A stretch of 64,000 nucleotides of DNA from Polyangiales bacterium (lineage in GTDB: Bacteria; Myxococcota_A; Polyangia; Polyangiales; CBDCBC01): contig OZ243942.1 of the NCBI GenBank assembly GCA_965214225.1, forward strand, positions 1,227,774 to 1,291,773. The letters run 5' to 3'. Under the pieces are notes generated by a model that saw nothing but the letters and a program-made list of their open reading frames with translations, was not told the origin of the DNA and searched no databases. A program made the position numbers and the translations under genes. The number at the start of each line of letters is the position of its first letter. Positions within the stretch are counted from its first letter, which is position 1. Shown one piece after another: positions 7,199 through 37,687 of the stretch.

Positions 7199-8143
7199 TC
7201 AGTTTCTAGTCTGCGAAGGATTCTTAGTCTGGAGGAGATGGACCAACAACGCCTTCTGAACGTGCAGGCGGTTTTCCGCTTCGTCCAAGACACGCGACTG
7301 AGGACCATCAATCACGTCAGCTGCCACTTCTTCACCTCTGTGCGCCGGCAAACAGTGTAAGAAGACAGCCTCCGGCTGAGCTAGCTTCATCCTCTTGGTG
7401 TCCACCTGATAATCGGCGAACACCTGCCTGCGAAGCTTATTTTCTTCCTCTTGACCCATGCTGGTCCACACATCGCTGGTGACCACGTGCGCTCCGCGAA
7501 TGGCATCCTCCGGGTGAAGCACCAGCTCAATTTGACCCGGGGCGGTTGTTTCCGCGTAGCGAAGCACGTTTGGATTGGGGAGGTAGCGGTCAGGGCACGC
7601 AAGCCTTAGCTTCAATCCGCTTAGGCAAGCAGCGTGGATCCAGCTATTGGCCATGTTGTTTCCGTCACCAACCCAAGCCACGGTGAGGTCTTCAAGGTCA
7701 CCAAACTCCATCTTTATCGTAAGTAGGTCTGCTAACAGCTGGCAGGGATGGAAGCGGTCAGTCAGACCGTTGATCACGGGTATGGTGGAGTTCTCGGCCA
7801 GGATCTCCACGCGCTCATGCTCTGCGGTGCGGTAGACCGCCGCGTGTACGAAGCGCGAAAGCATCTTCGCCGTGTCCTCGAGTGATTCCGCCAGCTCTCC
7901 GCGCCCAAGTTGGGTGTCACGCCCCAGAAGACTGAGCGGTTGTCCTCCAAGCTCATAAACCCCCACCTCAAACGAGAGGCGGGTGCGGGTGGATGGCTTT
8001 TCAAAAATGAGCGCAACAGACTTTCCCGCCAAAGGACCTGCTACCTGATGCTCACGCTTGGCTCGAAGTTTCTCCGCCGTGGCAAGCAACTCAAGCAGGT
8101 CGTCCTTGCCGAGATCGAGGAGAGTCTTGAGGTGCTGCGTCAT
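7199..8143 (-). CDS. argF: Ornithine carbamoyltransferase
   Basis: FEKPSTRTRLSFE, HPCQLLAD, WVGDGNN, FLHCLPAHRGEEV. Confidence 0.97.
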   Translation of the reverse strand: MTQHLKTLLDLGKDDLLELLATAEKLRAKREHQVAGPLAGKSVALIFEKPSTRTRLSFEVGVYELGGQPLSLLGRDTQLGRGELAESLEDTAKMLSRFVHAAVYRTAEHERVEILAENSTIPVINGLTDRFHPCQLLADLLTIKMEFGDLEDLTVAWVGDGNNMANSWIHAACLSGLKLRLACPDRYLPNPNVLRYAETTAPGQIELVLHPEDAIRGAHVVTSDVWTSMGQEEENKLRRQVFADYQVDTKRMKLAQPEAVFLHCLPAHRGEEVAADVIDGPQSRVLDEAENRLHVQKALLVHLLQTKNPSQTRN

Positions 8144-10486: not shown

Positions 10487-10997
10487 CGTGGCTGGCCCGC
10501 CGTGGCTGGCCCGCAGGCAGATGCATCGCCGCTCTCTCAGCGGGACCCACCGTCCTTTGGACGGTCCCCCCAATACGTTCGCTCACGATGCATCTTCCCG
10601 CGGGCCCGTCGTACATGCCCACATGCGGAGAGAGTGGCGTAGTTGACTTAGCCGGGAGGCTCAGGCTCATTTCCACAAGAGGATCCTACTGCTTTGCAAC
10701 AACTTGTAGATGCAACCACTTTGTCGTCCCTGCTATCTGAACCCGTCACCCGACCACGTTCGTGATGGACGGGGGAGTTTGGGTGAATGCCGCGGGATTG
10801 ACTTCCGCGGTAGATAGTTTGGGTTGCACAGCGTCTGGGTGCCAAACCCTCGATAAAAGTCGCATCACGCGGTTGACCCTGCTACCCGAGCACCTTCGTG
10901 ATGGGCGGGGGAGTTTGGGTGAATGCTCGGGATTGACTCCCGTGCAGATAGTTTGGGTGGCACAGCGTCTGGGTGCCAGACCTTTAGTAAACCAGCC
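10487..10997 (-). repeat. Modular structured dispersed repeat family 1, locus 1 (inverted relative to the other loci)
   Basis: Reverse-complement copies of GCATCGTGAGCGAACGTATTGGGGGGACC, GGTCCCGCTGAGWGAGCGG, GAAATGAGCCTGAGCC, GTCAATCCCG, ATTCACCCAAACTCCCCCG and TGGCACCCAGACGCTGTGC also found at 28.5, 33.1 and 35.9-37.0 kb. Confidence 0.95.
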
Positions 10998-28282: not shown

Positions 28283-28475
28283 ACGACGGACATGCCAACT
28301 GGTTCAAAGAGGCGAGCAGCTTGAATATTCCGGCTACATTGTAGACAGGCAACGTGATCCCACACGGCGAGAGCCGGGCCCAACAGGTGAAAGCTGACCT
28401 TGCTTAGTTGGGCGCTGACCTCGCACTGGAACATCAGGTCCCAGGTGTGCGCCATCTTGAGCGAGGACTGAGAAC

Positions 28476-28600
28476 GGTCCGATGGCAGGTGCTTCGTGAG
28501 CGAACGTATTGGGGGGACCGCTGCGCCCTGGTTTGAATTACGCTGCGCAGTGGTGGGTCCCGCTGAGTGAGCGGCAATGCATCGGCCCGCGGGCCAGCCA
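28476..28600 (+). repeat. Modular structured repeat family 1, locus 2 (core hairpin only)
   Basis: TGAGCGAACGTATTGGGGGGACC ... GGTCCCGCTGAGTGAGCGG. Confidence 0.92.
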
Positions 28601-30162: not shown

Positions 30163-30239
30163 CGGGGCGTGGCGCAGTCTGGTAGCGCGCACGGTTCGGG
30201 ACCGTGAGGCCGGAGGTTCGAATCCTCTCGCCCCGACCA
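30163..30239 (+). tRNA. tRNA-Pro(CGG)
   Basis: CGGGGCG acceptor stem, anticodon arm CACGG-TTCGGGA-CCGTG, GGTTCGAATCC T-loop, encoded CCA; 77 nt. Confidence 0.97.
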
Positions 30240-32745: not shown

Positions 32746-33050
32746 CTGCCTACCGCGTTTCGGTTAACACGCAGCATCTCCACTCGCACCTGTTGCTCGC
32801 AGACACGTGTTGCTATCATGACCGTAGCTGTAGCACTTTCACACCAGAGCATCGCACGCCAGAGAGACAAGAAAACAAGCTCAGTCTAAAGCGCTCCTGT
32901 CCTCATAGAGCGCTCTTGCCCCAACGAAGAGCACGAGCGCACCTACTGGAGGAAAGGGCGGTGAGCTATCTTCACGGTGTATCCTCTCTCCAACACTGTC
33001 TCACACATCCGCTCCCTTGCGCCACACGCTTAGAAATAGCAGCATCCCGC

Positions 33051-33534
33051 CGACAGGCCCCATGCACATACACTGCGCAGACGCATCGTGAGCGAACGTA
33101 TTGGGGGGACCGCTGCGACTTTTACTGAGGGTTTGGCACCCAGACCCTCTACCGCGGAAGTCAATCCCGCGGTATTCACCCAAGCTCCCCCGACCATCAC
33201 GAACGTGTTCGGGTAGCAGGAATGACGAAGTGGTTGGATCTACACGTCGTTGCAAGTCAGTGGGATGCTCACGTGGAAATGAGCCTGAGCCTCCCTGGCG
33301 AAGTCGACTACGCCACTCTCCCCCGCATGTTGCCGGCATCCACGACAGGCCCGAGGGCTGATGCATCGTGAGCGAACGTATTGGGGGGACCGCTTTCCGA
33401 AGGAAAGGGGTGGGTCCCGCTGAGTGAGCCGCGATGCATCGGCCCTCGGGCCTGCCACCACGCTGCACGGCCTCCCATGCTGCGTCGCCACTCGACGCTG
33501 CCACTCGACGCTGCCACTCGACGCTGCCACTCGG
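33051..33534 (+). repeat. Modular structured repeat family 1, locus 3 (about 1.5 units plus a 13-bp tandem tail)
   Basis: Two GCATCGTGAGCGAACGTATTGGGGGGACC cores (33083, 33363), unit start GGAAATGAGCC at 33275, tail GCCACTCGACGCT x3.6. Confidence 0.95.
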
Positions 33535-33651
33535 CTTCAGACGGTTCATTCCTGCCCCCAAAGATAGATGCGACTGCCCTGTCTGCGCGCTAGATTCGGC
33601 GAACGCGCTTATGGTAGTGTCAGCTCAAGCCCTTAGCCCACGAGATTTCCA

Positions 33652-35793
33652 ATGAATCCTCCCGCAATGCTGGCGTCGCTCCTATTATTGCTTGGTTTGT
33701 TCGCCTGGTCGGCAGTGCGGCGCTACCAGCTACTTCGAGCTGTAGGCGGCGACGCCCCCCTGCGCCTGAACTCGGTCAGCGAACTTCTCGCACGTGTGAA
33801 GATGACCGTTATCTACGCTTTCGGACAGCGCAAAATGCCTTACTATAAGGCGGCGGGTATCGCGCACATCCTTATCTTCTTTGGCTTCCTCGTATTGCTG
33901 CTTAGGAGCCTGCTCCTTTGGGGACGTGGGTTCGATCCAACCTTCGATTTTTACGGCGCACTAGCCCATGGGTCAGGGCTGAGCACTGTATACGCGATTC
34001 TCAAAGATTTCTTCGCGATGCTCGTGATCATTGGCTCCTCCATCTTTCTCTACTTCCGGATCGTCAAGCGCGAAAAACGGATGAGCCTTGGTAGCGAGGG
34101 GCTGATCATCCTTTTCATCATCATCACAATGATGCTCGCCGACTTCCTTTACGACGGAGCCGCTAACCTGCTTCGACATCGCGCCCTTGGCCGTTCAGTC
34201 ACGCCCTCGTGGTCAGACCCAATGGGCTCGCTGGTAGCCACTGCGCTCACGCCGCTTCGGCTTGAGGTCAACCAGCTAACCGCTCTTGAGCACCTTGGTT
34301 TTTGGTGGCACTCGCTGTTTGTCCTCATCTTCCTCAACCTGTTGCCGTACTCCAAGCACTTCCACATCATCACCGCGATACCCAACGTTTTCGCCATGCC
34401 TTTGAAGCCGCGCGGGCAACTGCGACCGGTCGACGACTTGGAAGGTCGGGTGGAACGTGAAGAAGCTCTCGGCCTTGGAAAAATAGAGGATCTCTCGTGG
34501 AAGGAAGTCCTTGATACGTACACCTGCACCGAGTGCGGCCGTTGCAGCGATAACTGCCCCGCCTATACGACCGGCAAGATGCTCTCTCCCAAGCATCTGA
34601 TGCTGGCTCTGCGGGAGCACCTATATGACTCAGAAGCACGCCTCACGTTGGCGACCGACGTGCCTCACGCAGACAGCCAAGATCGGGTTCCGGAGGGTCG
34701 GCAAGAGCTCGGCTACGGAGCGCCCGAGGGTGGATATTTTCGCAGCAGTGAAGAGGTAAACCTGGTGCCTGGCATCATGGACCCCAATGTCATTTGGGCG
34801 TGCACCACGTGCCGGGCCTGCGAAGAGCAATGTCCGGTGATGATCACGTTTATCGATAAGATCGTCGGGATGAGACGCGATCAAGTGTTGATGCATGCTG
34901 CCATGCCTGCAGAACTTGAAAAGCCCATGACGGCTATGGAAGTCAATGGCAATCCTTGGAATCTCCCCTCGAGCGAAAGAGCGCAATGGTGCGACGGGCT
35001 GGACGTTGCCTTCTTGCGAGATAAGCCTGATGCTGAGGTCCTCTACTGGGTCGGGTGCGCAGCGAGTTACGACGACCGCGCCAAGCGTATAGCGCGCGCC
35101 ACAGCTTCTTTGCTGAAGCTTGCCGATGTGGGCTTTGCCATTTTGGGATCGGAAGAACGCTGCACCGGCGACCCGGCCCGAAGAGCCGGCAACGAGTACC
35201 TCTTTGAAATGCTAGCGCAAGCTAACATCGAGACCCTCAAGTCGTACAAGGCGGAGACGAAGAAGATCATCACAGCCTGCCCGCACTGTTTCAACACGCT
35301 CGCTCGTGAGTATCCACAGTTCAACGCGCACTTCGAGGTCGTGCACCACACCACATTCCTCCTGGAGTTGGTGCAAGCTGGAAGGATCCCGCTCGAGTCT
35401 ACCAAAGCCCAAAGCTTCGTCTTTCACGACAGTTGCTACCTTGGGCGCTTCAACGACATCTACGACGCGCCGCGCGAGCTGCTTAAGGCCGTCCCCGGCC
35501 TCGATCTGAAGGAGGTTCCGTACTGGTCGAAGAACAAAGGGCTCTGCTGCGGCGCCGGAGGCGCGCAGATGTGGATGGAGGAGCAGAACCAAGATCGCGT
35601 CAATAATAAACGCGCCCTCCAGCTCGTAGACACTGGGGCAGATGCCGTGGCCAGCGCATGCCCCTTTTGCGCAACGATGCTTGAAGATGGCCTAAAAGCA
35701 ACTGGCAAGTCCGTCACGCAGCTGGACGTGGCCGAGATACTGGCCATGTCCGTGGCGACAGGCAGCGCGTCATCTGCCGAGGTGCAGCCATAG
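33652..35793 (+). CDS. Membrane-bound Fe-S oxidoreductase (HdrD/GlpC/FadF-like)
   Basis: N-terminal TM region; CTECGRCSDNCP and CTTCRACEEQCP; CCG domains (CTGD, HDSCYLGR, CCGAGG, ACPFC). Confidence 0.93.
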   Translation: MNPPAMLASLLLLLGLFAWSAVRRYQLLRAVGGDAPLRLNSVSELLARVKMTVIYAFGQRKMPYYKAAGIAHILIFFGFLVLLLRSLLLWGRGFDPTFDFYGALAHGSGLSTVYAILKDFFAMLVIIGSSIFLYFRIVKREKRMSLGSEGLIILFIIITMMLADFLYDGAANLLRHRALGRSVTPSWSDPMGSLVATALTPLRLEVNQLTALEHLGFWWHSLFVLIFLNLLPYSKHFHIITAIPNVFAMPLKPRGQLRPVDDLEGRVEREEALGLGKIEDLSWKEVLDTYTCTECGRCSDNCPAYTTGKMLSPKHLMLALREHLYDSEARLTLATDVPHADSQDRVPEGRQELGYGAPEGGYFRSSEEVNLVPGIMDPNVIWACTTCRACEEQCPVMITFIDKIVGMRRDQVLMHAAMPAELEKPMTAMEVNGNPWNLPSSERAQWCDGLDVAFLRDKPDAEVLYWVGCAASYDDRAKRIARATASLLKLADVGFAILGSEERCTGDPARRAGNEYLFEMLAQANIETLKSYKAETKKIITACPHCFNTLAREYPQFNAHFEVVHHTTFLLELVQAGRIPLESTKAQSFVFHDSCYLGRFNDIYDAPRELLKAVPGLDLKEVPYWSKNKGLCCGAGGAQMWMEEQNQDRVNNKRALQLVDTGADAVASACPFCATMLEDGLKATGKSVTQLDVAEILAMSVATGSASSAEVQP

Positions 35794-35851
35794 CCCAGCA
35801 GCCATAGCCCAGCAGCCATAGCCCAGCAGCCACAGCCCAGCAGCCACAGCC
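35785..35851. repeat. 14-bp tandem repeat x4.8 containing the Fe-S gene stop codon
   Basis: CAGCCATAGCCCAG x3 then CAGCCACAGCCCAG. Confidence 0.92.
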
Positions 35852-35906
35852 TAGGGCAATCGCATCTAGAAGTAGTAGCAATTGCCCGAGGCCCTACCCG
35901 AGAAGC

Positions 35907-37084
35907 GGAAACGAGCCTGAGCCCCTGGGCGAAGTCGACTACGCCACTCCCCCACGCTTGTCGGCTTCCACGACAGGCCCGCTGGCAGATGCATCGTGAG
36001 CGAACGTATTGGGGGGACCACCGCCCAGCCCTGGTTGAATGACGCAGGGCGGTGGTCCCGCTGAGTGAGCGGCGATGCGTCTCTTAACGGGGGTCTGGCA
36101 CCCAGACGCTGTGCCACCCAAACTATCTGCCGCGGAAGTCAATCCCGCTGCATTCACCCAAACTCCCCCGCTCATCACGAACGTGTTCGGGTAGCAGGAG
36201 TGACGAACTGGTTGCATCTATACGTCGTTGCAAAGCAGTGAGGTCTCCGTTCGGAAATGAGCCTGAGCCTCCCGGCGAAGTCAACTACGCCACTCTCCCC
36301 CCGCATATTGCCGCAACACTGACAGGCCCGCTGGCCGATGCATCGTGAGCAAACGTATTGGGGGGACCGCTGCGACTTTTACTGAAGGTCTGGCACCCAG
36401 ACCCTCTGCACGGGAGTCAATCCCGCTGCATTCACCCAAACTCCCCCGCCCATCACAAACGTGTTCGGGTAGCAGGAGTGACGATTTGGTTGCATCTATA
36501 CGTCGTTGCAAAGCAGTGAGGTCTCCGTTCGGAAATGAGTCTGAGCCTCCCGGCGAAGTCGCCTACGCCACTCTCCCCCGCATGTTGCCGCAACACTGAC
36601 AGGCCCGCTGGCCGATGCATCGTGAGCGAACGTATTGGGGGGACCGCTGCGACTTTTACTGAAGGTCTGGCACCCAGACCCTCTGCACGGGAGTCAATCC
36701 CGCTGCATTCACCCAAACTCCCCCGCCCATCACAAACGTGTTCGGGTAGCAGGGTCAACCGCGTGATGCATCCATACATCGGTGTAAATCAGTGGGTTCG
36801 CTCCGGAAATGAGCCTGAGCCTTTTGGCGAAGTCGACTACGCCACTCTCCCCCCGCTTGTCGGCATGTACGACGGGCCCGCTGGCAGATGCATCGTGAGC
36901 GAACGTATTGGGGGGACCGCCCAAAGGGTGGTGGGTCCCGCTGAGTGAGCGGCGATGCGTCTGCCAGCGGGCCGGCCACCACGCTGCACGGTCCCCCACG
37001 CTGCACGGTCCCCCACGCTGCACGGTCCCCCACGCTGCACGGTCGTCTCCCACGCTGCACGGTCTCCCACGCTGCACGGTCTCT
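35907..37084 (+). repeat. Modular structured repeat family 1, locus 4: tandem array of about 3.6 units plus a 17-bp x6 tail
   Basis: Unit starts GGAAAYGAGYCTGAGCC at 35907, 36253, 36531 and 36805; tail CACGCTGCACGGTCCCC-like x6 at 36980-37084. Confidence 0.97.
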
Positions 37085-37207
37085 TAAACTGCGCTTGAAT
37101 GCCCCCGTACCCGTAAAGCACGTAGGCCACGCCAGTAGCAAGCTGCCAGGGCAAAGCTGCCGGTATAAAGTTGACAACTAAGATGACCGAGCCATGCTCC
37201 CCGCACC

Positions 37208-37687
37208 GTGCTTCCTCTACTAGCGCAGCATCTTCTCACGCAGCATCTTCTCACGCAGCATCTTCTCACGCAAGGCACCGCATCTCCACCGTCGATGATC
37301 TGGCCGATCCTGCGAACACTACTGGTGCTCTTGCTGATTTCCGCATCAGCCTGGTGGGCCCTCCGGTGGCTCTCGAGGAGGGGCTTCGGCGTGGTGAAGT
37401 CGGATGGACAGATTCAGGTTGTACAACATCGGCCGCTCACCCGGACGCAGGCTCTCTACATCGTTGAGGTGGAGGGCCACCGACTCCTGCTCGGGGTCGG
37501 TAGAGAGGGTGCGCCGCGTCTCATCTCCAAGCTTGATGCGGTGCGGAGCGCAGAGTCTCTAGAAGGCCACGCCGCTCAGCTTCGCTCTCTCTCGAGCACA
37601 CCCCCAGGCAAAGACAGCAGCGTGACCGATGGCGAACCGCAGAAGGAGCACCGCTCCGCCGGAAGCTTCCCGGCAACCTTCAGCTAA
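37208..37687 (+). CDS. FliO-like export-associated membrane protein
   Basis: Single TM (LVLLLISASAWWALRWL), then IQVVQHRPL...ALYIVEVEG.RLLLGVG; start uncertain. Confidence 0.7.
   Translation: MLPLLAQHLLTQHLLTQHLLTQGTASPPSMIWPILRTLLVLLLISASAWWALRWLSRRGFGVVKSDGQIQVVQHRPLTRTQALYIVEVEGHRLLLGVGREGAPRLISKLDAVRSAESLEGHAAQLRSLSSTPPGKDSSVTDGEPQKEHRSAGSFPATFS

What the first reader, a model, noticed from the sequence alone, without database searches (positions are those of the whole stretch)
33346..33454. Covarying ~100-nt core structure shared by five copies of repeat family 1
Copies at 10508-10606 (minus), 28476-28595, 33346-33454, ~35975-36080 and 36875-36973 share one layout: outer stem / conserved TGAGCGAACGTATT / GGGACC stem / variable hairpin / GGTCCC / conserved GCTGAG(T/A)GAGC / outer stem. 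The outer stem changes on both arms together: CAGGCCCGAGGGCTGATGCATCG pairs with CGATGCATCGGCCCTCGGGCCTG at 33.4 kb, while GGCCCGCTGGCAGATGCATCG pairs with CGATGCGTCTGCCAGCGGGCC at 36.9 kb. The outer stem is degenerate at 28.5 and 36.0 kb. The apical hairpin differs in sequence but always pairs (CTTTCC-GAA-GGAAAG; ACCGCCC-AAA-GGGTGGT; ACCGTCC-AAA-GGACGGT; ACCGCTGCGC..GCGCAGTGGT). Paired changes in stems with near-invariant loops suggest selection on an RNA or ssDNA structure, although intra-element gene conversion could produce the same pattern.
Basis: partly seen in the sequence, partly recalled or inferred. Interest (0 to 1): 0.75.

Follow-up and report, generated by a model that had tools for sequence, protein, structure and literature searches.

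The report
Conserved hairpin core of bacterial repeats
The ~100-base hairpin is real and occurs about 150 times in this uncultured Polyangiales genome as the central module of a mosaic, partly transposon-bounded intergenic repeat; it is an unusual member of the known class of palindromic bacterial repeats, and there is no sign that it is a gene-linked regulatory RNA.

Summary
Observation confirmed and extended. All five window copies match one covariance model (76-118 bits). The genome holds 149 closed cores at about 100 loci, 1.6% of its DNA.

In 68 distinct copies, 15 of 21 outer-stem pairs and 5 of 5 apical-hairpin pairs show two-sided changes (96.5% paired against 84.5% in shuffles). The loops stay 97% identical in 162 units ascertained without using them.

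A sister-genus MAG has about 50 copies with 35-47 bp stems that differ at every locus. They share only AGCGAACG and CGCTNAGTGAGCGG with this genome (core 95% against stem 54% identity).

What it is: the central palindrome of a modular repeat. 31 of 94 loci keep the terminal inverted repeat CAGGGCAATCGCATCTA of an intact ISAs1-family insertion sequence in the same genome. Tandem duplication then makes arrays.

An mRNA-sense RNA role is unlikely. Orientation to genes is random (25:25 in co-directional spacers here, 4:6 in the sister genome), no promoter was found, and Rfam gives nothing. Mirrored indels in both arms favour DNA-level arm-to-arm copying.

RAYT, reverse-transcriptase and IS91 partners were tested and not supported. 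The reason for the loop conservation remains open, and no transcriptome exists.

Verdict: a new variant of REP/MITE-type repeats, of moderate interest.

The parts
33346..33368 (+). 5' arm of the outer stem (CAGGCCCGAGGGCTGATGCATCG)
   Evidence: Pairs with 33432-33454 over 23 bp with one G.T wobble. Covarying positions are counted.
33369..33384 (+). Conserved 5' strand of the internal loop, TGAGCGAACGTATTGG. It holds AGCGAACG, which is shared with the sister genus.
33386..33391 (+). 5' strand of the inner helix, GGGACC. An alternative register pairs ACC with the GGT of the GGTG bulge.
   Evidence: (invariant, so uninformative)
33393..33407 (+). Variable apical hairpin CTTTCC-GAA-GGAAAG
   Evidence: All 5 counted hairpin pairs show two-sided changes across copies. 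37 distinct hairpins occur among 72 type I terminal copies.
33409..33412 (+). Conserved 3'-side bulge GGTG
   Evidence: Invariant columns in alignment A1
33413..33418 (+). 3' strand of the inner helix, GGTCCC
33419..33431 (+). Conserved 3' strand of the internal loop, GCTGAGTGAGCCG. It holds CGCTNAGTGAGCGG-type sequence shared with the sister genus. GCT/AGC can form a 3-5 bp mini-hairpin.
33432..33454 (+). 3' arm of the outer stem
33040..33581 (+). The whole repeat locus that holds the finding. It has two units. The first (33065-33120) has only the 5' half of the core. The locus then runs through linker hairpins, the L module (33275-33345), the complete core, the right-hand modules with a 15-nt minisatellite, and the right terminal inverted repeat.
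33564..33581 (-). Right terminal inverted repeat (reverse complement CAGGGCAGTCGCATCTAT). It matches the ISAs1-family IS ends CAGGGCAATCGCATCTA.
35852..35869 (+). Left terminal inverted repeat (TAGGGCAATCGCATCTAG) of the four-unit array
35852..36978 (+). Four-unit array with periods of 346, 278 and 274 nt. Its cores lie at 35973-36096 (internal unit with a truncated 3' arm), 36322-36371 and 36599-36648 (5' halves only), and 36872-36974 (terminal, complete).
10507..10609 (-). Complete terminal core on the minus strand, with linker modules upstream up to about 10990
28473..28596 (+). Solitary core with the long apical hairpin and mismatched outer arms. It has no L module.

Best explanation
The core is the central palindrome of a lineage-specific, non-coding, modular intergenic repeat of the REP / Correia / BOX kind. 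It is confined to one family of uncultured Polyangiales.

In this genome the palindrome is embedded in a mosaic unit: left end, L module, 5' arm, core, 3' arm, GCCAGCCAC, right modules. Part of the copies are bounded by the terminal inverted repeats of an ISAs1-family insertion sequence present in the same genome. Those copies can be spread as miniature transposons. Tandem duplication, in a genome prone to it, then makes arrays in which only the last unit keeps a full 3' arm.

I infer that the arms do fold on each other as single-stranded DNA. I also infer that they are kept complementary mainly by arm-to-arm templated copying during replication or repair (quasi-palindrome correction), perhaps helped by selection for the fold.

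The two unpaired motifs, AGCGAACG and AGTGAGCGG, form a direct repeat of GT(G)AGCG displayed on both strands of the internal loop. They are held constant by selection on sequence. The most likely reason is that they are the recognition site of a protein not yet identified, which copies, maintains or uses the element.

Shown: the anatomy, the copy number, the covariation, the match to the IS ends, the taxonomic range, and the random orientation to genes.

Inferred: the folding in vivo, the copying mechanism, and the protein partner.
For: Anatomy and copy number:
- 149 closed cores; about 109 loci; 57 kb, or 1.6% of the chromosome.
- The unit grammar is (H1 H2 H3 L0 Lm arm-core)n plus a 3' arm. 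Arrays always end in a complete core and start at variable points.

Transposon link:
- The ends CAGGGCAATCGCATCTA(A/G) are shared by the repeat units and by two intact 1290-bp IS copies at C1:255678-256969 and C1:2101507-2102796.
- The IS product is an ISAs1 family transposase (NF033564, 364.7 bits against a cut-off of 70; Pfam DDE_Tnp_1 and DDE_Tnp_1_assoc).
- The left subterminal ~50 nt of the repeat resembles the IS end.
- 31 of 94 loci keep at least one such end, against about 1% expected by chance.

Dispersal of composites:
- A deletion derivative with one identical junction (GGGGGGACCGCTGCGAC-TTTTAC) occurs at more than 15 loci, each time ahead of a complete unit.

Pairing:
- One search gives the pair counts and the arm-arm against arm-hairpin association.
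- Internal-unit 5' arms still fit the array's 3' arm, with 2.4 mismatches on average against 1.2 for terminal units.

DNA-level copying:
- Type I arms (21 bp) and type II arms (33 bp) differ by a block replaced identically in both arms. A one-base-pair loss at C1:1138564 is mirrored in both arms.
- Many two-sided changes are double transversions, such as C-G to A-T.
- Another hairpin of the same repeat, H1, also keeps pairing at a biallelic site: T-A 113, C-G 102, mismatched 15.

Sequence selection on the loops:
- The sister genus has cores 94.8% identical but stems only 54% identical, and shares only the two loop motifs with this genome.
- Loops are 97% identical in independently ascertained units.

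Against an mRNA-sense role:
- In this genome the 94 loci split into 26 convergent, 18 divergent, 25 tandem-same and 25 tandem-opposite spacers, with no departure from the genome's spacer types.
- In the sister genome tandem spacers split 4 sense to 6 antisense.

Single-strand and replication signals:
- G.T outnumbers A.C 51 to 19 on the top strand.
- The top strand lies on the negative-GC-skew strand at 61 loci against 33.
Against: - Only a third of loci keep a recognisable ISAs1-type end and only 5 keep both. No clear target duplications were seen. The way most copies spread is therefore not established.
- The sister-genus copies have no such ends at all.
- No protein partner was found. The RAYT-type Y1 genes are not flanked by the element and occur in half the genomes of the order.
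- Pure neutral arm homogenisation does not explain why variation is concentrated at five stem positions, or why the core evolves roughly nine times more slowly than the stem in the sister genus.
- The excess of G.T over A.C mismatches would also fit an RNA fold.
- No transcription data exist, so RNA roles are disfavoured but not excluded.
Confidence: 0.45

Rival explanations
1. The core is a functional structured RNA of a new class. Candidates are a protein-binding 3'-UTR or read-through element, an RNase III substrate, a small RNA, or a self-cleaving ribozyme. Its long closing stem needs only to pair, and its asymmetric internal loop is the active or binding site.
For: - It shows the classic signature of conserved loops with compensated stems.
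- The loop motifs are conserved across two genera while the stems are entirely different.
- G.T is tolerated far more than A.C on one strand.
- The top strand folds with z about -9 to -11, at -75 to -80 kcal/mol, against -59 kcal/mol for the reverse strand.
- In the sister genome the copies sit 0-30 nt after stop codons, where they would be transcribed.
- Arrays of units recall multimeric RNA elements.
Against: - Orientation to the adjacent transcript is random in both genomes: 25 to 25 here and 4 to 6 in the sister genome. An asymmetric loop cannot work in antisense.
- There is no conserved promoter; the flanks are unique and the scan is negative.
- There is no terminator-like tail in this genome.
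- No Rfam family matches, including every known ribozyme class, even at E up to 10.
- Mirrored indels in the arms are hard to obtain by sequential RNA-level compensation in a family whose other parts are at least 90% identical.
- No RNA run holds the sequence.
Confidence: 0.2
2. The core does nothing. It would be passenger DNA of a young burst of mobile and tandemly duplicated repeats. The loops look conserved only because the copies are recent. The stems look compensated only because palindrome arms are mechanically homogenised, and recombination shuffles a few old variants.
For: - In this genome the whole unit, not just the loops, is 80-99% identical between copies.
- The modules are shuffled between copies. 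The commonest arm occurs with every hairpin type, and arm-hairpin association is weak.
- The genome is exceptionally rich in tandem duplications (earlier notes).
- Core-less units arise at CGATGC microhomology.
- Other hairpins of the repeat behave the same way.
Against: - In the sister genus the stems have diverged to 54% identity while the 47-nt core stays at 95%. Recency cannot explain this.
- The two genera share only the loop motifs, in different element contexts.
- Variation in this genome's stem is confined to about five positions while its neighbours are invariant. That pattern implies constraint.
Confidence: 0.25
3. The core is a REP/REPIN-type element mobilised by a RAYT (Y1 HuH tyrosine transposase), or a folded single-strand recombination site of the integron attC type.
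For: - Both genomes carry Y1_Tnp genes.
- The element is a hairpin with conserved single-stranded motifs, one reading AGTAG in the sister genus.
- The sister-genome copies lie at gene 3' ends, as REPs do.
- Conservation of structure rather than sequence in the stems recalls attC sites.
Against: - The sister genome's RAYT-like gene is flanked by its own, different REP doublets, GGTGACACGCACTAAAGTGCATGTCACC. It scores below the NCBIfam cut-off, 68.4 against 80.
- This genome's Y1 gene has no copy of the element beside it; the nearest is about 42 kb away.
- Homologues of that Y1 gene occur in 20 of 41 genomes of the order, while the element occurs in 2.
- The element is 100-140 nt, not 20-40.
- This genome's copies have no GTTRRRY / RYYYAAC boxes, and the copies are not in cassette arrays.
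Confidence: 0.05

Closest known systems
REP / BIME elements of enterobacteria, including RIP/RIB units (two inverted REPs around a conserved IHF-binding core), and REPINs of Pseudomonas (own knowledge: Gilson, Bachellier; Bertels and Rainey 2011)
   Same: - High-copy, non-coding, intergenic palindromes.
- Mosaic combinations of modules and tandem clusters.
- Preference for gene 3' ends in the sister genome.
- Compensated changes that keep the hairpin.
- A conserved non-palindromic centre between inverted arms, as in RIP units.
   Different: - Here the centre is the conserved part and the arms vary. In REPs the arm sequence is conserved.
- The hairpin is 100-140 nt, not 20-40.
- There is no GTAG head.
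- It is not the repeat that flanks the RAYT gene.
Correia / NEMIS elements of Neisseria, and ERIC/IRU of enterobacteria (own knowledge)
   Same: - Miniature transposon-like repeats of 100-150 bp that fold into long hairpins.
- Hundreds of copies.
- A central region with a protein (IHF) site in some variants.
- When transcribed, the hairpins are cut by RNase III or RNase E.
   Different: - Correia ends are conserved 26-bp inverted repeats with TA duplications.
- Here the hairpin arms are internal and variable.
- The transposon-type ends lie about 100 nt outside them and belong to an ISAs1-family element.
BOX elements of Streptococcus pneumoniae (boxA-boxB(n)-boxC; own knowledge)
   Same: Modular repeat in which an internal module is tandemly reiterated between fixed end modules, with stable predicted folds.
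   Different: Here the repeated unit is about 270-340 nt and contains the whole 5' arm and core. The sequences are unrelated, and a link to an autonomous IS is visible.
ISAs1-family insertion sequences and MITEs derived from them
   Same: The ends CAGGGCAATCGCATCTA are identical to those of two intact ISAs1-family copies in the same genome. The elements are small and have no ORF.
   Different: - Only 31 of 94 loci keep such an end.
- Target duplications were not resolved.
- The hairpin core has no counterpart in the IS, and it also exists in a sister genus without these ends.
Integron attC sites (own knowledge)
   Same: Imperfect palindromes of 57-141 nt recognised as a folded single strand, with structure conserved and sequence free.
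   Different: - In attC the conserved boxes are at the base of the stem and the apex is variable; here it is the reverse.
- There are no cassette arrays.
- The R'/R'' consensus is absent in this genome.

Membership tests
MITE derived from an ISAs1-family IS | Terminal inverted repeats matching those of an autonomous IS | tested here: met
   CAGGGCAATCGCATCTA(A/G) lies at both ends of two 1290-bp IS copies and at the outer ends of repeat units. However, only 31 of 94 loci keep at least one end and only 5 keep both.
MITE derived from an ISAs1-family IS | A cognate transposase encoded elsewhere in the genome | tested here: met
   A 394-aa ORF matches NF033564 (ISAs1 family transposase) at 364.7 bits against a cut-off of 70. 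It also matches PF01609 and PF13808. There are four paralogues, two within intact elements.
MITE derived from an ISAs1-family IS | Target-site duplications flanking the element | tested here: inconclusive
   6-7 bp direct repeats lie near some ends but with shifting offsets. None is seen at the two IS copies.
MITE derived from an ISAs1-family IS | Short, non-coding, and dispersed at many loci | tested here: met
   Units are 270-340 nt at about 109 loci. They contain only spurious ORFs.
REP / REPIN mobilised by a RAYT | Copies of the repeat flank the RAYT gene | tested here: not met
   The sister genome's RAYT-like gene is flanked by a different REP doublet. This genome's Y1 gene is flanked by neither.
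REP / REPIN mobilised by a RAYT | The repeat and its RAYT co-occur across genomes | tested here: not met
   Y1 homologues occur in 20 of 41 genomes of the order. The repeat occurs in 2 of 401.
REP / REPIN mobilised by a RAYT | A 20-40 nt imperfect palindrome with a conserved GTAG-type head | tested here: not met
   The hairpin is 100-140 nt and the conserved motifs lie inside it, not at its foot.
Any described RNA family (Rfam 15, including hammerhead, twister, pistol, hatchet and HDV-like ribozymes, riboswitches and sRNAs) | A match to the family covariance model | tested here: not met
   The only gathering-level hit in the window is a tRNA at 30163-30236. At E up to 10 on 32900-37200, only chance-level hits of at most 20 bits appear.
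cis-acting mRNA element (3'-UTR stabiliser, attenuator or terminator) | A fixed sense orientation relative to the adjacent gene | tested here: not met
   In co-directional spacers the split is 25 same to 25 opposite in this genome and 4 to 6 in the sister genome.
Intrinsic terminator | A G+C-rich hairpin followed by a U tract | tested here: not met
   No terminator-like site lies at any copy in 32900-37300. The 3' arm is followed by GCCAGCCAC.
Retro-copied element (fixed 3' end with variable 5' truncation) | A reverse transcriptase in the genome | tested here: not met
   PF00078 is absent from both genomes, although the controls are detected.
Rolling-circle (IS91-type) element with a subterminal hairpin | A Y2 transposase in the genome | tested here: not met
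   PF04986 is absent from this genome. The sister genome has one copy.
Integron attC site | RYYYAAC / GTTRRRY boxes at the stem base, and cassette arrays beside intI | tested here: not met
   This genome's stem base is GATGCATCG/CGATGCATC. The sister genome's CAAAC/GTTTG is only a near match, and it lies next to the core rather than at the foot. intI was not searched.

The most novel reading that the evidence does not exclude
The hairpin could be the substrate of a mobility or maintenance system that has not been described. In this reading, a sequence-free clamp stem presents an asymmetric internal loop that carries the same GT(G)AGCG motif on both strands. A dedicated dimeric protein recognises the folded single strand (DNA or RNA). 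This would be a REP-like system without a RAYT, or a new protein-binding or catalytic RNA class. It would be old enough to predate the split of two Polyangiales genera, and it was later captured by an ISAs1-type miniature transposon.
Probability: 0.2. Interest if true: 0.7.

Novelty: new variant of a known kind. Interest (0 to 1): 0.42.

Why it matters
- Palindromic intergenic repeats are common, but in nearly all described families the arms are the conserved, recognised part. Here the pattern is inverted. A non-palindromic core is held constant over about 200 copies in two genera, while the clamp stem drifts freely and stays paired. That points to recognition of a folded single strand by something still unknown.
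- The family gives a natural data set for separating selection on pairing from mechanical arm-to-arm copying: about 150 paralogues with variable stems, terminal units against internal units, and mirrored indels.
- On the practical side, the repeat occupies 1.6% of the chromosome. It breaks short-read assemblies of the sister genome: many copies lie within about 20 nt of contig ends.
- It would also be mis-called as a structured-RNA candidate by covariation screens that ignore orientation and DNA-level homogenisation.

Tried and rejected
- Known RNA families. Rfam gave nothing at the gathering threshold or at E up to 10. By eye I also tried hammerhead (CUGAUGA/GAAA), box C/D kink-turn, sarcin-ricin and tetraloop-receptor readings of the loops. 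None fits in both genera. These comparisons are from memory and were not tested by tool.
- Wider homologues. The covariance model was run on 40 relatives and the pattern on 400 genomes of the order. The pattern was also run on all GTDB species genomes and on the JGI metagenomes. Only the sister MAG has the family. The other hits are single, lack flanking stems, and mostly reflect the near-palindrome CGCTCAGTGAGCG.
- Expression and strain polymorphism. Only the source DNA metagenomes hold the sequence. There are no RNA runs and no alternative strain that would show an empty site.
- RAYT/HuH partner: rejected.
- Reverse transcriptase and IS91 partners, considered because arrays have a fixed 3' end and variable 5' ends: rejected for this genome.
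- IS110, IS66 and rve-type multicopy genes lie 3-30 kb from any copy and share no ends with it.
- Promoter and terminator scan: nothing at the elements.
- The idea that the stems are inverted copies of the target site: rejected. The sister-genome stems, though 54% identical, share motifs along their whole length (GTTGAG, CTGG..GG..CAAAC), so they are diverged homologues.
- The idea that the core is an independent insertion with a target duplication. Core-less units exist, but their junctions fall in the CGATGC microhomology that both arms share. Deletion by slippage explains them equally well.
- Literature. Two full-text searches (ISAs1 with MITE; MITE with myxobacteria) found no description of this family.
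Full report
**1. The observation**

- A 23-bp outer stem, 33346-33368 with 33432-33454, with one G.T wobble.
- The unpaired strand TGAGCGAACGTATTGG.
- GGGACC paired with GGTCCC.
- A small apical hairpin, CTTTCC-GAA-GGAAAG.
- A conserved GGTG bulge.
- The unpaired strand GCTGAGTGAGCCG.

The two loop motifs occur 8 and 5 times in the window, against 0.03 and 0.45 expected by chance. A covariance model built from genomic copies (R1) finds the five stated copies on the stated strands at 76-118 bits. The opposite strand of the same places scores 31-38 bits.

The copy at 28.5 kb has mismatched arms. The copy at 36.0 kb is an internal unit of an array. Three further units in the window carry only the 5' half of the core.

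**2. How many copies, and is the covariation more than chance**

The window is C1:1227774-1291773 of a 3.67-Mb, 59% G+C assembly. Earlier notes and the sister genome's record place it among uncultured Polyangiales.

The chromosome has 179 copies of the 5'-loop motif and 178 of the 3'-loop motif, each allowing at most 2 mismatches. These make 149 closed cores.

I aligned 68 distinct copies that have a complete outer stem (A1).
- 96.5% of cells are paired, against 84.5% in shuffles (0 of 500 shuffles reach it).
- 35-49% are paired when the partners are slid by 1-3 columns.
- 15 of 21 outer-stem pairs and 5 of 5 apical-hairpin pairs show two-sided changes.
- The GGGACC:GGTCCC helix never covaries, so it is uninformative. 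An alternative register (ACC with the GGT of the bulge) fits equally well.

These copies were collected through the loop motifs, so loop invariance there is partly circular. I therefore collected units again through an unrelated upstream module. In those 162 units the 5' loop is 97.4% identical to consensus, the proximal arm 96% and the distal arm 84%.

As a crude control for shared descent, I compared associations among 72 type I copies:
- The five variable arm positions carry 0.30-0.74 bits of mutual information with their partners in the other arm. Shuffles give about 0.05 (p<0.0005).
- They carry only 0.18-0.28 bits with the type of apical hairpin (p from 0.0005 to 0.33), although the hairpin lies physically between the arms.

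The pairing is therefore not simply inherited linkage.

**3. What the core is part of**

BLAST of the 35.9-37.1 kb array against the genome shows a family with about 170-200 unit copies. It covers 57 kb (1.6%) in about 109 loci.

Module mapping gives the grammar (H1 H2 H3 L0 Lm [5' arm-core])n plus a 3' arm plus GCCAGCCAC. Three features stand out:
- Arrays always end with a complete core.
- Only that last unit has a full 3' arm. Internal units keep 4-13 nt of it.
- Arrays begin at variable points.

Following the flanks outwards shows that complete copies run from GGGCGATCGCATCTAAAAGTAGTTGCAATCAGCGG... on the left to ...GGCTTAGACGGTTCATCCCTGCCCCCAAGTTAGATGCGATTGCCC on the right. They therefore have terminal inverted repeats, CAGGGCAATCGCATCTA.

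The same 17-18 bp close two intact 1290-bp elements, at C1:255678-256969 and C1:2101507-2102796. Their 394-aa product is an ISAs1 family transposase (NF033564, 364.7 bits; Pfam DDE_Tnp_1 and DDE_Tnp_1_assoc). The left subterminal ~50 nt of the repeat also resembles the IS end.

In the window these ends lie at 35852-35869 (left) and 33564-33581 (right). The link is partial, however. Only 31 of 94 oriented loci keep at least one recognisable end and only 5 keep both. Target duplications could not be resolved.

A deletion derivative lacking the hairpin and 3' loop, with one identical junction, is found at more than 15 loci. Each time it sits ahead of a complete unit, as at 33065-33454. Two-unit composites have therefore been dispersed as wholes.

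Within arrays, the 5' arms of internal units still fit the array's single 3' arm (2.4 mismatches on average against 1.2 for terminal units). This is what tandem duplication would leave, in a genome that earlier notes already describe as extremely rich in tandem arrays.

**4. Relatives elsewhere**

The model and a loop-motif pattern were run over 40 and then 400 genomes of the same order. They found the family in one other genome only: a sister genus of the same GTDB family, with 40 exact and about 50 near matches. Its record title is 'MAG: Polyangiales bacterium isolate MAG_AAO_H125.40'.

Scans of all species genomes and of the JGI metagenomes gave only scattered single hits without flanking stems.

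The sister version is simpler:
- A 47-nt core, AGT AGCGAACG ATTCGCGAAGCCGAAGGCGTAG CGCTTAGTGAGCG G.
- It is clamped by a near-perfect 35-47 bp stem that differs at every locus.

Core copies are 94.8% identical pairwise. The 17 stem positions beyond CAAAC are 54% identical. The stems still share motifs along their length, so they are diverged homologues and not target-derived.

The two genera share only AGCGAACG and CGCTNAGTGAGCGG. The inner helix, the hairpin and the stems all differ. This is the strongest evidence that the loop sequence itself is under constraint.

In the sister genome the copies lie 0-30 nt after stop codons. Of 22 loci, 11 are convergent spacers, 10 tandem and 1 divergent. 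This is the usual position of REP-type repeats.

**5. RNA or DNA**

No RNA run holds either version. The two runs that hold the window are the source DNA metagenome.

Three indirect tests speak against an mRNA-linked RNA function:
- In co-directional spacers the element is sense 25 times and antisense 25 times in this genome, and 4 against 6 in the sister genome. An asymmetric loop cannot act in antisense.
- There is no promoter-like or terminator-like site at the elements. In the sister genome nothing conserved lies outside the hairpin that could be a promoter.
- Rfam has no match, even at E up to 10.

Two signals suggest a strand-specific single-stranded form:
- Stem mismatches are G.T 51 times and A.C 19 times on the TGAGCG strand (binomial p about 2e-4). 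The copies are not independent, and the sister genome gives 14 against 9, which is not significant.
- The TGAGCG strand lies on the negative-GC-skew strand at 61 of 94 loci.

Several features favour mechanical arm-to-arm copying at the DNA level (quasi-palindrome correction) over stepwise compensation:
- The two arm types differ by a block replaced identically in both arms: GGCCCG-CGGGAA-GATGCATCG against GGCCCC-ATGCAGATACACGGAGCC-GATGCATCG.
- The loss of one base pair is mirrored in both arms at C1:1138564.
- Many two-sided changes are double transversions.
- Another hairpin of the same repeat keeps pairing at a biallelic site: T-A 113, C-G 102, mismatched 15.

Yet the variation is confined to about five stem positions, and the core is far more conserved than the stem in the sister genus. 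Constraint exists as well.

**6. Candidate partners**

Both genomes have Y1 (HuH) genes. These do not fit as partners:
- The sister genome's RAYT-like gene is flanked by its own, different REP doublets.
- This genome's Y1 gene has no copy of the element nearby.
- Its homologues occur in 20 of 41 genomes of the order.

No reverse transcriptase is present in either genome, and no IS91-type transposase is present in this one. IS110, IS66 and rve-type genes are unrelated to the repeat.

The only supported mobiliser is the ISAs1 transposase, and only for copies that keep its ends.

**7. Conclusion**

The best reading (0.45) has four parts:
- The core is a lineage-specific palindromic repeat module.
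- It is older than the split of two genera.
- In this genome it is captured in mosaic units that are partly ISAs1-type miniature transposons and are expanded by tandem duplication.
- Its arms fold on each other as single-stranded DNA and are kept complementary mainly by templated copying, and its unpaired motifs are conserved as a recognition site for an unidentified protein.

The rivals are:
- A new structured RNA (0.2).
- Functionless passenger DNA (0.25).
- A RAYT or attC-type system (0.05).

It is a new variant of a known kind. It is of moderate interest mainly because the conserved and free parts are inverted compared with classical REPs and MITEs.

Noticed in passing
Genome C1:255678-256969 and C1:2101507-2102796 (outside the window): There are two intact 1290-bp ISAs1-family insertion sequences with ends CAGGGCAATCGCATCTA. 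Two further partial paralogues of the transposase lie at C1:561849-562649 and C1:770578-771570. A different 506-bp non-coding element at C1:635409-635914 uses the same ends.
   Followed up: partly
window 33484-33530 and 36970-37092: Minisatellites of 15-nt and 17-nt units sit directly to the right of the 3' arm. They are built from the repeat's own right-hand module (CACGCTGCACGG.. / GTCGCCAC..). The same occurs at many other loci, for example GCAGCACATCTGCACTCGGGCCAGCCAC repeats.
   Followed up: partly
Genome C1:2377226-2377301 (-): The apical hairpin of one core holds six or more tandem copies of a 12-nt unit, CTGGTTTGAATGAC. This shows slippage inside the hairpin loop module.
   Followed up: no
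Genome C1:1027512-1027737 and C1:1410912-1411118: A third small element of about 150 nt, with inverted ends CAATGCTGTTCA(C/G)TTAAG, is inserted in the apical hairpin of two cores. The apex seems to be a preferred place for additions.
   Followed up: no
Genome C1:1526211-1530372 (-), also 1398128 and 1399607: This is a diverged subfamily in arrays with a 293-nt period. Its loops read (A)AGCG-TATTGG and GCTGAGCGCGC, and its outer arms are different (GGGCGACGCCTCT..). The loop motifs therefore do vary between subfamilies while GAGCG is kept.
   Followed up: partly
L141 (sister genome C138:69597-70055 and flanks): A RAYT-like Y1 gene is flanked on both sides by REP doublets, GGTGACACGCACTAAAGTGCATGTCACC. 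This is a classical REPIN-RAYT pair, unrelated to the family studied here.
   Followed up: partly
L034 (sister genome C21, around 7965-8007): The palindrome around one core runs on for more than 110 bp on each side with only two mismatches. It is either a large true inverted duplication or a fold-back assembly artefact.
   Followed up: no
Sister genome, about 15 contig ends: Many copies of the hairpin lie 9-21 nt from a contig end, so the repeat breaks the short-read assembly of that MAG.
   Followed up: no
Whole chromosome C1: GC skew is negative from 0 to 1.88 Mb and positive from 1.9 to 3.5 Mb, so the origin is near 1.88 Mb. The repeat's TGAGCG strand lies on the negative-skew strand at 61 of 94 loci.
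   Followed up: partly
window 10812-10857 and 10946-10991; genome-wide: The linker hairpin H1, GAGGGT(C/T)TGG-CACC-CCA(G/A)ACCCTC, resembles the outer part of the sister genome's stems (GAGGGTCTGGGGGAGGTCAAAC..core..). It may be an 'empty' relative of that hairpin.
   Followed up: partly
window 30163-30236: This tRNA gene is the only Rfam gathering-level match in the window.
   Followed up: no
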